Origin: Escherichia coli O157:H7
GTDB taxonomy: Bacteria > Pseudomonadota > Gammaproteobacteria > Enterobacterales > Enterobacteriaceae
Assembly: GCF_013167455.1 (NCBI RefSeq)
Contig: NZ_CP038332.1
Reading direction: 5' to 3' (one strand)
Length of the DNA: 64,000 nt
How positions within the stretch are numbered: position 1 is the first letter of the stretch; each line of letters begins with the position of its first letter. Shown in pieces: positions 44,563-47,500 of the stretch. A program made the position numbers.

Positions 44563-47500
44563 TTAAGGGAAATTCGCATGTTGTATACAAAAGTCAACTT
44601 TATTGATGCAACAGGATATACCTATTGCTGGGATAGATACTACAGACAAAAAATACTAAGGGGTTCCAAGCCGCAACTGACGATGCCGTTGAGTGCTGCG
44701 CAGACCTGAATATTCCCTTCTTTGTGGATGTCAGAAACAAAAAGCTGGTCTTCTGGTTTGTACGTGTTGATGACGAAGGGTATCCTGAAATAGCCCGCTG
44801 CACGGAGCGGGAGTTTGCGACCATTCTTGCCGGTATCAGCGCCGGCGGCATGTACTGCCCGGAGTGTGGCACGGTTCACTGGCCGGACGGAGTTCCCCCG
44901 CCCTTCTGATGCTTCCCCGTTTTGCCGACATTTTTCAGCAGGGAAACCGCTGGCTTAACTGGCTGGAGAAACAACCGGAAGGTTCAGTGCGTCCGGTAGT
45001 CATTGAGTCTGTGACAAAAATCATGGCCTGCGGGACCACGCTGATGGGGTACACACAGTGGTGCTGTTCATCTCCGGACTGCAGCCACATAAAAAAGGTC
45101 TGCTTCCGGTGTAAAAGTCGCTCCTGCCCGCACTGCGGAGTGAAGGCTGGCGCACAGTGGATACAGTATCTGCTGAGTCTGGTTCCCGACTGTCCGTGGC
45201 AGCATATTGTGTTCACACTTCCCTGCCAGTACTGGTCCCTGGTGTTCCACAACCGGTGGTTACTGGCAGAGATGAGCCGCATTGCTGCGGATGTGATACA
45301 GGAAATCTGCCGCCAGGCAGATGTGCGACTACGAACTCGAACCACAATCTGCCAGTTGCGCCAAATCTGCTGAACCAGACGTTCGCTCCTGCAGCACCAA
45401 ATCAGGTCTGGGTGGCGGACCTGACGTATGTTGCCACACAGGAGGGATGGTTGTACCTCGCTGGCATCAAAGATGTTTATACGTGCGAAATTGTCGGCTA
45501 CGCCATGGGAGAGCGCATGACAAAAGAGCTGACAGGTAAAGCCCTGTTTATGGCGCTCAGGAGCCAGCGCCCACCTGCCGGGCTAATCCACCACTCTGAT
45601 CGAGGTTCACAGTACTGCGCATACGATTACCGGGTCATACAGGAGCAGTTTGGTCTGAAAACATCAATGTCGCGTAAAGGTAACTGTTACGACAACGCTC
45701 CGATGGAAAGCTTCTGGGGAACGCTGAAAAATGAGAGCCTGAGCCACTATCGTTTTAATAACCGGGATGAAGCCATCTCAGTAATACGGGAATACATTGA
45801 GATTTTCTACAATCGTCAGCGTCGTCACTCTCGTCTGGGGAATATCTCCCCGGCAGCCTTCAGGGAAAAATATCATCAGATGGCTGCTTAAAAAAAGAAC
45901 AAATGGTAGTGTCCGCTATTGCCAGTACACCTCACCGGACCTGGTGATACCGGATGCGCTGGCAGCAGAAGGAAGCAGTAAACGGGACTGGAATCGCTTC
46001 CTGGACAGTCATTACCGGCGGGGCTGGAATGTCAACGTATCCCGGGTGATGGATAACGCCACACATGTGGCGGTGTACTTCGGCTCTTACCTGAAAAAAC
46101 CGCCGGTGCCGATGAGCCGTCTGGAGCACTATGCTGGTCAGGATGAAATAGATCCATTTAATTGACGGCGGTGCACTCATGGCACGCAGGCAGTGTTGAA
46201 TAAACATCCGTTTTTGGGTGTTTTTTTAATCTTTTTGGGATTTAAATTCCTATCGATCAAGATCATAACTCGCATATCTGTTCTTTTTATGTATATCTAT
46301 ATCTATTTTTGTGACGAGTTCAAACCACAATGTTCGCACTCCCCATGCTGCGTTATGAAACATTTCCGCAACGGCTATAGAGTCTGTATTAACTGCTTCA
46401 GTCATGTAGTCGCTAATACGTTCAGCGGTAATTTTCGTTATTTCATCGTAATTCATTTTATCTCCTACAAGATTATTTAAATATCTGGCCTGATAATAAT
46501 GTTCCAGAATTAATATCTGCAGGCTATGTTAAGTTGTCCCCACACACAATCTACCTGTTTTCTCGTGTGTGCCACAGGCGCAATACATAAATAGTCTGGC
46601 CATTAAGTTCGTAACGGATTTCGTACTCGCCAGCAAAAATCCGTCTGACCTCCCTGGGTTCAAACTGAAATAACTGTTCCCCCATACGTGGATGAGTTAA
46701 CAGAATGACCGGTGCCTGTGTCAGGGACTGTACCGTTCTGGCGGCAGCAGGTTTACTGGCTAGCACCAGAAAATCATATAACCGCGCCAAATCAGAAAGC
46801 GCTTTACTGCTCCACTTCAGTTCCATCAGCGTGGCACCGGTAACGGATTGTCAGTACTGAGGCTGTCCGCCCAGGCCTGTACAGCCTGATGGTCAATAAC
46901 CTGTCCGGATGTCACATCGTCCAGGGCTTCCAGCGTCAGGCGATTACGCTCCTCCTCCTGGGCAAGCCATGCAGAAAGCGCCTGTTTGATAACCCAACCC
47001 CGGGAGCGTTCCAGTCTGGCGGCCATCTGGTCGACTTTATCAGCCATAGGTAATGGCACATGCGCGGTAATGACTTTTGTTGCTTGTGCGGTATTGTTTT
47101 TCATTTGCATATCCGATTAGTCGTTAATCATATTTAATCATAGTGATTACTTTCAGACGGAACAAGGCAAATAATGCGCGTCAGCGCATGTAAGGCGGTA
47201 TACGGAGGTTACATGTAGCACAGGTGTAAAACCGCCGAAGCCCGGCGTAAGCCGGTACTGATTGATGGATTTCACCTTACCCCCCCCCAGCCCTGCCAGA
47301 CCATACCCGCTTTCAGCCATGAGAGAGTTTATGTGCGCGGTCGGAGTGGTCCCGACGAGGGTTTACCCGAAGTCGGGGCGTATCTCCGCGTTAGCGAGCC
47401 CTCAGGGCCGCTTACGAGCGTGTACTGAGAACGTTCAGCCAGAAGACTGACAGCGATGATGATGCTTAGTTACAACATTCATAATTAAAAGCGACTCTGT

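What the first reader, a model, noticed from the sequence alone, without database searches (positions are those of the whole stretch)
46551..47110. RelE/ParE-RHH toxin-antitoxin pair next to the RepFIIA replicon
A translationally coupled antitoxin-toxin pair sits where classical IncFII plasmids carry the Kis/Kid (PemI/PemK) module downstream of the origin. This looks like a swap of the stability cassette for a different toxin family.
Basis: partly seen in the sequence, partly recalled or inferred. Interest (0 to 1): 0.3.

Follow-up and report, generated by a model that had tools for sequence, protein, structure and literature searches.

The report
ParE-type toxin-antitoxin pair on pO157
This is a real but ordinary and already annotated ParE-toxin / ribbon-helix-helix-antitoxin gene pair, sitting just past the RepFIIA replication origin of the E. 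coli O157:H7 virulence plasmid; it is common on F-type plasmids, and whether it actually kills plasmid-free cells is still unproven.

Summary
The window is plasmid pO157. Two minus-strand genes overlap by one base (TGATG): 47110..46826 (94 aa, Pfam RHH_1) and 46826..46551 (91 aa, Pfam ParE_toxin).

- **Family.** Profile searches, a pLDDT-97 model and Foldseek place the toxin with ParE toxins, above RelE, YoeB and HigB. Both partners are homologous to ParESO-CopASO (PDB 7ETR).
- **Position.** Homology to the R100 replicon ends at window 47177, 67 bp upstream of the antitoxin start. Beyond that point R100 carries tir-pemIK and pEB3 carries ParDE-I (YacAB).
- **Frequency.** RefSeq already names the pair. 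It occurs in 1142 of 5426 complete E. coli genomes, and 819 share the pO157 junction.
- **Function.** A 97%-identical toxin on pAA1070 showed no significant toxicity when expressed from pBAD33 (PMC11950199). Killing and plasmid stabilisation remain unproven.

Verdict: observation confirmed, interpretation partly supported, already known, low interest.

The parts
46826..47110 (-). Antitoxin gene, 94 aa as annotated. It has an N-terminal ribbon-helix-helix DNA-binding domain (residues 14-51) and a C-terminal tail presumed to bind the toxin. The true start may be the second ATG at 47104, giving 92 aa.
   Evidence: Pfam RHH_1 E=1.2e-10. PDB 7etr_A CopASO matches at E=0.001 over residues 15-89, and 6xrw_B also matches. 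PGAP names it 'CopG family ribbon-helix-helix protein', WP_001178089.1. The first ATG is ATA in pEC5654 while the second ATG is conserved.
46551..46826 (-). Toxin gene, 91 aa, ParE subfamily of the RelE/ParE superfamily. Its ATG shares one base with the antitoxin stop codon (TGATG).
   Evidence: Pfam ParE_toxin E=1.2e-16. A profile search of the PDB returns ParE-type chains, plus 2khe, a T. thermophilus chain labelled RelE (7etr_C at 2e-11). The AF2 model has pLDDT 97.1. The Foldseek top 22 are all ParE-type toxins, TM 0.75-0.88. PGAP names it 'type II toxin-antitoxin system RelE/ParE family toxin', WP_000421248.1.
47127..47156 (-). Promoter-like site of the cassette: -35 CTGAAA, 18-nt spacer, -10 TATGAT. 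It lies inside the 67 bp that belong to the cassette rather than to the replicon block.
   Evidence: Consensus scan, 9 of 12 matches; it was the only hit in the region and is not above the shuffle expectation. It is conserved in five plasmids, including one where the cassette is not next to the origin. Function is inferred.
47124..47142 (.). Candidate operator: a 9-nt direct repeat (TTAATCATA on the + strand, TATGATTAA on the coding strand) present twice at 10-bp spacing and overlapping the -10 hexamer. An inverted copy, TAATCA, lies 3 nt upstream on the coding strand.
   Evidence: the repeat finder family D1, sequence reading, conserved in five plasmids with a single substitution in one. Binding by the RHH antitoxin is inferred, not shown. 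The motif differs from the CopASO operator GTANTAC(N)3GTANTAC (PMC8706911).
47174..47189 (-). G+C-rich hairpin (ATGCGC-TGAC-GCGCAT) that marks the end of the conserved RepFIIA block. All the homology breakpoints fall at its 3' foot.
   Evidence: Terminator-like scan. Breakpoints lie at 47177 against R100 and pEB3, and at 47177-47184 against pEC5654. In the alignment R100 and pEB3 carry a hairpin at the same place with a different stem sequence.
47177..48021 (.). oriR/repA4 region of the RepFIIA replicon: the conserved block between repA1 and the cassette.
   Evidence: 92-95% identical to R100 and pEB3 up to position 47177. 'RepA4' is annotated under the equivalent stretch in other plasmids. 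The position of ori between repA1 and repA4 is taken from PMC4398462.
48022..48879 (-). repA1, the IncFII replication initiator. The Tap leader peptide gene lies at 48872-48946.
   Evidence: NCBIfam TIGR03474 E=3e-175. PGAP annotation of the identical plasmid, locus L001 6472-7396.
48964..49052 (+). CopA antisense RNA, the copy-number control element of the replicon.
   Evidence: Rfam RF00042, 99.1 bits against a gathering score of 60, full length.
49182..49436 (-). copB/repA2, the replication regulatory protein.
   Evidence: Pfam RepB-RCR_reg E=1.2e-33 and NCBIfam PRK13702 E=8e-43.
46250..46456 (-). 68-aa ORF of unknown function, 94 bp downstream of the toxin gene. It travels with the cassette in other plasmids.
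   Evidence: Annotated as a hypothetical protein, WP_001105064.1. No Pfam, NCBIfam or PADLOC hit. Homology with pEC958, p1RM9088 and p2474-NDM1 runs down to window 46259.

Best explanation
This is a type II toxin-antitoxin operon of the ParE / ribbon-helix-helix kind, homologous in both partners to ParESO-CopASO. It occupies the variable cargo slot immediately after the RepFIIA ori/repA4 block of pO157.

Shown from sequence:
- An antitoxin-first bicistron with a 1-nt stop/start overlap and its own 67-bp upstream region.
- An RHH domain in the antitoxin and a ParE fold in the toxin.
- Strong conservation of both genes across many genera.

Inferred mechanism:
- The antitoxin dimerises through its RHH domain and represses the operon by binding the TATGATTAA repeats that overlap the -10 hexamer.
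- Its C-terminal tail folds onto the alpha1-alpha2 groove of ParE and neutralises it.
- If the plasmid is lost, the labile antitoxin is degraded. Free ParE then poisons DNA gyrase or another replication-linked target, which penalises plasmid-free segregants.

The strength of that last step is doubtful, because a 97%-identical toxin was not measurably toxic in the only published test.
For: - Domains: Pfam RHH_1 and ParE_toxin.
- Both partners hit the same solved complexes, 7ETR and 6XRW. A deeper profile gives 7etr_C at 2e-11, followed by ParE-type chains.
- The model has pLDDT 97 with an alpha-alpha-beta-beta-beta core. ParE toxins fill the top 22 Foldseek hits (TM 0.75-0.88), while RelE, YoeB, HigB and YafQ score 0.46-0.70.
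- His91, essential for ParESO toxicity (PMC8706911), aligns with H86, which is near-invariant in alignment A3. Its antitoxin partner Glu54 aligns with E61.
- The RHH + ParE pairing is kept in Pseudomonas, Rhizobium and Sinorhizobium plasmids at 60-70% identity. The 91-aa length is fixed and identity is 74-85% across genera. pN/pS is about 0.1-0.4 between plasmid alleles (low power).
- The promoter-like site and repeats are conserved and move with the cassette.
- The slot is shared with tir-pemIK (R100) and ParDE-I (pEB3) at one breakpoint.
Against: - The pAA1070 toxin differs by S6T, A14S and L74I. It caused no significant loss of viability from pBAD33 in DH5alpha or in the cured native host in LB. 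[quoted passage not shown] Protein expression was not verified in that study.
- In the pEC958 TraDIS screen only ccdA among the antitoxin genes was protected from insertion, and the pair was not even listed among the plasmid's TA systems (PMC4398462). pEC958 does carry it.
- According to PMC8706911, E. coli O157 ParE2 does not inhibit gyrase, so the target cannot be assumed.
- The promoter-like hit is not above the shuffle expectation.
- No experiment on the pO157 pair itself was found.
Confidence: 0.65

Rival explanations
1. The pair is an attenuated, non-killing module. Toxin and antitoxin still bind each other and the promoter, but the toxin has little or no toxicity. On this view the pair persists as an anti-addiction or immunity element against related ParE toxins of competing plasmids or prophages, as a local regulator, or simply by hitch-hiking next to the origin.
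For: The 97%-identical pAA1070 toxin was not significantly toxic (PMC11950199). The antitoxin gene was not among the nine elements required for pEC958 maintenance. pAA was very stable regardless of its TA systems. About 1000 PLSDB plasmids carry only a frameshifted toxin remnant with no antitoxin, so the module is dispensable.
Against: The toxin is strongly conserved, including the His that is essential for toxicity in ParESO. Its length is fixed at 91 aa across genera. pN/pS is below 1. The spread listing showed no class with an intact toxin lacking an antitoxin. Negative toxicity assays without an expression check are weak evidence.
Confidence: 0.25
2. The toxin is a RelE-type ribosome-dependent mRNA endonuclease rather than a ParE-type gyrase poison.
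For: Pfam PF05016 and the PGAP name cover the whole RelE/ParE superfamily. One chain labelled RelE (T. thermophilus 2KHE) appears in the profile search at E=0.0012.
Against: All the better sequence hits and the top 22 structural hits are ParE-type toxins. RelE, YoeB, HigB and YafQ score clearly lower, TM 0.46-0.70. The secondary structure is the ParE-type alpha1-alpha2 hairpin plus a three-stranded sheet, with no C-terminal helix.
Confidence: 0.05
3. The pair acts mainly as an abortive-infection or anti-phage module carried by the plasmid.
For: From general knowledge only: several type II toxin-antitoxin systems protect against phage, and plasmids carry defence genes.
Against: No PADLOC model matches any of the three proteins. 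The location is tied to a replicon, not to a defence island.
Confidence: 0.05

Closest known systems
ParESO-CopASO of Shewanella oneidensis prophage CP4So (PDB 7ETR; PMC8706911)
   Same: Both partners are homologous: the toxin at profile E=2e-11 over residues 2-89, the antitoxin at E=0.001 over residues 15-89. Both have an RHH antitoxin with a C-terminal toxin-binding tail and a ParE-fold toxin. The toxicity-essential His (H91 there, H86 here) and its Glu partner (E54 there, E61 here) are retained.
   Different: Identity is only about 20%. That system sits on a prophage and this one on a plasmid. The operator there is an inverted GTANTAC pair, whereas here the repeats are TATGATTAA. ParESO is strongly toxic, while the nearest tested relative of this toxin was not (PMC11950199).
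The RelE/ParE-like operon next to the FII origin of pAA1070/pTY2 (EAEC O104:H4; PMC11950199)
   Same: This is an orthologue. The toxin has 3 differences in 91 aa and the antitoxin 2 in 94, with the same promoter region and the same position about 0.9 kb after repA.
   Different: pAA has a second, ParD/ParE-type operon directly downstream, and its FII repA looks truncated. pO157 has IS91/IS600 debris there instead.
PemI-PemK / Kis-Kid of R100 and R1
   Same: It occupies the same variable region beyond the RepFIIA ori/repA4 block and is also a type II, antitoxin-first operon.
   Different: The families are unrelated: a MazF-type RNase toxin with an AbrB-type antitoxin. No PemK domain is present here. 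In R100 it lies about 840 bp further from the junction, behind tir. It is found in 1989 complete E. coli genomes against 1142 for this pair.
ParDE-I (YacA-YacB) of IncI1 and IncF plasmids (Kamruzzaman and Iredell 2019, PMC6614396)
   Same: The toxin is ParE-family, and in pEB3 the module sits at the same junction at the same distance from repA1: 916 bp against 912 bp. It has been shown experimentally to stabilise plasmids and induce the SOS response.
   Different: The toxins are only 24% identical and the antitoxins show no detectable similarity. The promoters differ. No O157 plasmid appears in that paper's distribution table.
Chromosomal and plasmid ParD-ParE systems (P. aeruginosa 6XRW, M. 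opportunistum 5CEG, C. crescentus 3KXE, RK2)
   Same: The toxin fold is the same (TM 0.78-0.88), and the antitoxin is an RHH protein.
   Different: Identity is 20-25%. NCBIfam has no specific model for this toxin. Gyrase inhibition has not been shown for this clade.

Membership tests
Type II ParE/ParD-like (RHH) toxin-antitoxin systems | The toxin has the RelE/ParE fold of the ParE subtype: an alpha1-alpha2 hairpin packed on a three-stranded sheet. | tested here: met
   Pfam PF05016 E=1.2e-16. The PDB profile hits are ParE-type chains, except 2khe, which is labelled RelE. The model has pLDDT 97. The Foldseek top 22 are ParE-type toxins, TM 0.75-0.88.
Type II ParE/ParD-like (RHH) toxin-antitoxin systems | The antitoxin is encoded immediately upstream and has an N-terminal ribbon-helix-helix DNA-binding domain. 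| tested here: met
   Pfam RHH_1 E=1.2e-10, residues 14-51. It is homologous to CopASO and to the 6XRW antitoxin. Gene order and the 1-nt overlap are shown.
Type II ParE/ParD-like (RHH) toxin-antitoxin systems | The toxin inhibits growth and is neutralised by direct binding of its cognate antitoxin. | not testable with these tools
   This needs experiments. In the literature the 97%-identical pAA1070 toxin was not significantly toxic from pBAD33 (PMC11950199). The interface residues H86 and E61 are conserved.
Type II ParE/ParD-like (RHH) toxin-antitoxin systems | The operon is autoregulated by antitoxin binding to repeats in its own promoter. | tested here: inconclusive
   Conserved TATGATTAA x2 repeats overlap a promoter-like -10 hexamer. 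No binding data exist, and the promoter hit is not above the shuffle expectation.
Type II ParE/ParD-like (RHH) toxin-antitoxin systems | The toxin poisons DNA gyrase. | not testable with these tools
   This needs an in vitro supercoiling or cleavage assay. Not all ParE proteins do this; E. coli O157 ParE2 does not, according to PMC8706911.
RelE-type mRNA interferases | The closest sequence and structure relatives are ribosome-dependent RNases (RelE, YoeB, HigB, YafQ). | tested here: not met
   These rank below all ParE structures, at TM 0.46-0.70. Only one chain labelled RelE appears in the profile search, at E=0.0012. Catalytic residues were not compared one by one.
PemK/Kid (MazF-family) - PemI/Kis | The toxin has the PemK/MazF domain and the antitoxin is of the PemI/MazE type. 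| tested here: not met
   No such Pfam or NCBIfam hit. There is no DNA similarity to R100 pemIK beyond window 47177.
ParDE-I (YacAB) of IncI/IncF plasmids | Sequence identity to the characterised pJIE512b/pEB3 pair; the paper's criterion was at least 80% nucleotide identity over 90% of the length. | tested here: not met
   The toxins are 24% identical and the antitoxins do not align. The ParDE-I promoter is absent from the window.

The most novel reading that the evidence does not exclude
The foot of the hairpin that ends the RepFIIA ori/repA4 block may be a dedicated exchange point. At least three unrelated toxin-antitoxin cassettes alternate there: RHH-ParE, ParDE-I/YacAB and tir-PemIK. The RHH-ParE occupant is conserved under purifying selection yet was non-toxic in the one published assay of a near-identical copy. 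It may therefore not be a post-segregational killer at all, but serve another purpose tied to the origin, such as immunity against ParE toxins of competing plasmids or replication-linked regulation.
Probability: 0.1. Interest if true: 0.4.

Novelty: already known. Interest (0 to 1): 0.12.

Why it matters
It matters little beyond bookkeeping. The pair is annotated in RefSeq, is present in about a fifth of complete E. coli genomes, and its orthologue on pAA has been cloned and tested.

Two modest points may be useful to plasmid biologists:

1. IncFII-type replicons end at one sharp junction (window 47177). Beyond it, different plasmids carry different toxin-antitoxin cassettes: this pair, ParDE-I or tir-pemIK.
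2. This very common ParE module has no demonstrated toxicity or stabilising effect. Surveys that count it as an 'addiction system' of virulence and resistance plasmids do so on homology alone.

Tried and rejected
- **First structure prediction.** The alignment held only homologues of 74-98% identity and gave pLDDT 57, so I did not use it for fold searching. I replaced it with a deeper alignment from the representative search.
- **Is this pair the characterised ParDE-I?** No. No O157 plasmid appears in that paper's table, the promoter is different, the toxins are 24% identical and the antitoxins unrelated.
- **Reference records not held.** pJIE512b (HG970648) and R64 (AP005147) are not in the plasmid collection. 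I used pEB3 instead.
- **Is the unexplained 'EC958_A0140' maintenance gene of pEC958 this antitoxin?** Unlikely. That gene was found in only 17 other plasmids, whereas this pair is far more widespread. The supplement held no per-gene insertion indices to check directly.
- **Literature searches.** Searches by protein accession and for pO157 + ParE or CopG + IncFII found no experiment on the pO157 pair itself.
- **Anti-phage defence.** No PADLOC hit.
- **NCBIfam.** It has no model for the toxin, and only a sub-threshold BrnA hit for the antitoxin: 20 bits against a cut-off of 60.
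Full report
**What the window is.** The region 46200-47400 is 100% identical to plasmid pO157 of E. 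coli O157:H7 Sakai (AB011549/NC_002128) and to dozens of other O157 plasmids. RefSeq annotation of an identical plasmid gives the following order on the minus strand: finO, a thermonuclease-family gene, hha, a hypothetical gene, copB/repA2, tap, repA (IncFII), then a CopG-family ribbon-helix-helix protein (WP_001178089.1), a 'type II toxin-antitoxin system RelE/ParE family toxin' (WP_000421248.1) and a 68-aa hypothetical protein. After these come IS91/IS600 fragments and katP.

Two minus-strand ORFs lie exactly at 46826..47110 (94 aa) and 46551..46826 (91 aa). The sequence reads ...CCA CGC TGATG GAA..., so the antitoxin stop codon and the toxin start codon share one base. No Shine-Dalgarno sequence is evident before the toxin ATG, which fits translational coupling. 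Pfam assigns RHH_1 to the first protein (E=1.2e-10) and ParE_toxin PF05016 to the second (E=1.2e-16, nearly the whole profile). The neighbouring replicon is RepFIIA:

- RepA matches TIGR03474 at E=3e-175, and CopB matches PRK13702.
- CopA RNA matches Rfam RF00042 at 99 bits, window 48964-49052.

**ParE or RelE?** PF05016 and the PGAP name span the whole RelE/ParE superfamily, so I tested this further.

- As single sequences, both proteins find the same two solved complexes, 7ETR (ParESO-CopASO of Shewanella) and 6XRW (P. aeruginosa ParDE), at weak E-values.
- The toxin has 3021 database homologues. Most are exactly 91 aa long, and they are 74-85% identical across Photorhabdus, Aeromonas, Pseudomonas, Shewanella, Burkholderiales and rhizobia.
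- A profile built from more distant representatives hits 7etr_C at 2e-11, then 5CEG, 6X0A, 6XRW, 5CW7/5CZF (E. coli O157 ParE2), 8C24 and 3KXE, all ParE-type chains. The only chain labelled RelE is 2KHE, at 0.0012.
- With that alignment AlphaFold gives a pLDDT-97 model: a short beta strand, two long helices and a three-stranded sheet. An earlier shallow alignment had given only pLDDT 57 and I discarded it.
- In Foldseek against the PDB, ParE-type toxins fill ranks 1-22 (TM 0.75-0.88). RelE, YoeB, HigB and YafQ follow at TM 0.46-0.70.
- His91, shown to be essential for ParESO toxicity (PMC8706911), aligns with H86, which is near-invariant in the family. Its hydrogen-bond partner in the antitoxin, Glu54, aligns with E61.

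I therefore call this a ParE-subfamily toxin with a CopA/ParD-like RHH antitoxin. Its closest characterised relative is ParESO-CopASO.

**The cassette and its control region.** On the coding strand the 67 bp upstream of the ATG read ...GCGCAT|TATTTGCCTTGTTCCGT CTGAAA GTAATCACTATGATTAAA TATGAT TAACGACTAATCGGAT ATG.

- A promoter-like site has -35 CTGAAA and -10 TATGAT with 18-nt spacing. It was the only hit in the region, but one hit is not more than shuffled sequence gives.
- The 9-mer TATGATTAA occurs twice at 10-bp spacing across the -10 hexamer, with an inverted TAATCA just upstream.
- This whole stretch is conserved in pAA, pEC958, p1RM9088 and pEC5654. In pEC5654 the cassette is not adjacent to the origin, and homology begins only at about window 47176-47184. 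The promoter and repeats therefore belong to the cassette.
- Tandem repeats one helical turn apart are what RHH repressors typically bind. Operator function here is inferred.
- The first ATG is ATA in pEC5654, while the second ATG (47104) is invariant. The real antitoxin may therefore be 92 aa long.

**Position relative to classical IncFII plasmids.** blastn of the window against R100 shows 92-95% identity from finO through copB, repA1 and the ori region. The identity stops at window 47177 = R100 position 90514.

- Beyond that point R100 has tir (annotated as a CPBP-family endopeptidase), pemI and pemK.
- The same breakpoint appears against pEB3, an ETEC plasmid. There the characterised ParDE-I (YacA/YacB) pair starts 916 bp after repA1, against 912 bp in pO157.
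- ParE-I is only 24% identical to the pO157 toxin, and the two antitoxins do not align.
- R100 and pEB3 stay homologous for 57 bp more, through the ParDE-I promoter, and part only 11 bp before the ParD-I start codon.
- All the breakpoints fall at the 3' foot of a G+C-rich hairpin (47189..47174). R100 and pEB3 have a hairpin at the same place with a different stem sequence.

At least three unrelated cassettes thus occupy one slot at the end of the replicon block.

**How common it is.**

| Measure | Count |
|---|---|
| Complete E. coli genomes (of 5426) with at least 80% of the 560-bp pair, almost always on plasmids | 1142 |
| Complete E. coli genomes with the antitoxin gene contiguous with ori-side DNA, as in pO157 | 819 |
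| Complete E. coli genomes with pemIK | 1989 |
| PLSDB records (of 72,556) with a toxin match, including Klebsiella, Shigella and Salmonella | 3102 |

- About 1000 of the PLSDB records carry only a frameshifted toxin remnant that lacks its first 12 codons and has no antitoxin.
- The two modules are not mutually exclusive. pEC958 has tir-pemIK at its own FII replicon (PMC4398462) and this pair elsewhere, attached to about 260 bp of ori-side DNA.

**Function: what is and is not known.** I found no experiment on the pO157 pair itself.

- The O104:H4 pAA plasmid carries an orthologue. The toxin differs at S6T, A14S and L74I, and the antitoxin at 2 residues. It has the same promoter and sits about 0.9 kb after repA, with a second ParD/ParE-type operon directly downstream.
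- In that study neither toxin reduced viability significantly when induced from pBAD33 in DH5alpha or in the cured native host in LB. One gave a less than 10-fold effect in M9. CcdB gave more than 1000-fold. The authors concluded that these systems do not appear functional. Toxin expression was not verified.
- The pEC958 TraDIS study found ccdA to be the only antitoxin gene protected from insertion, and it did not list this pair among the plasmid's TA systems.
- Against a 'dead relic' reading stand the strong conservation, the fixed length, the retained critical His, and pN/pS of roughly 0.1-0.4 between alleles, although that last figure rests on few substitutions.

My best account is a genuine ParE/RHH type II module whose killing power is weak or conditional. 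I am about 0.9 confident in the family assignment and architecture, and about 0.4-0.5 confident that it acts as an effective post-segregational killer on pO157.

**Novelty and score.** The pair is named by PGAP, is very common, and a near-identical copy has been cloned and tested. It is already known. The shared junction with three alternative cassettes is a tidy minor observation, not a surprise. Interest: 0.12.

Noticed in passing
window 46250-46456 (-): A 68-aa ORF (WP_001105064.1, hypothetical) lies 94 bp after the toxin gene in AT-rich DNA. It travels with the cassette in pEC958, p1RM9088 and p2474-NDM1, where homology runs down to 46259. It has no Pfam, NCBIfam or PADLOC hit. Whether it belongs to the operon is unknown.
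   Followed up: partly
window 47174-47189 (-); L003 (R100) about 10500-10515: A G+C-rich hairpin sits exactly at the end of the conserved RepFIIA block, and every homology breakpoint falls at its 3' foot. R100 and pEB3 have a hairpin there with a different stem sequence (ATGCCGC...GCGGCAT against ATGCGC...GCGCAT). It could be a terminator or a recombination boundary.
   Followed up: partly
L003 (R100) 10516-10572 against L009 (pEB3) 30179-30236: R100 keeps 57 bp of the ParDE-I (YacAB) promoter region right after the replicon block, then switches to tir-pemIK 11 bp before the point where ParD-I would start. This suggests that tir-pemIK replaced a ParDE-I coding region, or the reverse.
   Followed up: partly
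L004 (p2474-NDM1) 4022-4256, and about 1000 PLSDB records: A widespread variant, found in Klebsiella, E. coli, Shigella and Enterobacter IncFII plasmids, retains only codons 13-91 of the toxin with a frameshift and an internal stop. It has no antitoxin and lies next to parMR.
   Followed up: partly
L005 (pEC5654) 6860-7412; L007 (pAA) 5252-5527; L008 (pEC958) 1907-2430: Other RelE/ParE-type pairs cluster near this cassette. pEC5654 has a 99-aa toxin with an 87-aa partner between the origin and the cassette. pAA has a ParD-type antitoxin ORF directly downstream of the cassette. pEC958 has a frameshifted ParD/ParE pair 2.3 kb away.
   Followed up: no
L007 (pAA O104:H4) 2981-3838: The FII repA of pAA is not in the gene table, and the longest ORF there is 231 aa with a TTG start, against 285 aa normally. 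The gene may be damaged. That would fit the published failure to build a test vector from the FII replicon alone (PMC11950199).
   Followed up: no
window 49854 (junction); ORF 49676-50014 (-): Relative to R100, pO157 lacks about 250 bp inside the DUF2726 gene upstream of copB. This leaves a 112-aa ORF where R100 has 196 aa.
   Followed up: no
window 44864-46165: A mosaic of IS91 and IS600 transposase fragments lies between katP and the cassette and truncates the cassette's far side. In less rearranged plasmids such as p1RM9088, the parMR partition genes follow there instead.
   Followed up: partly
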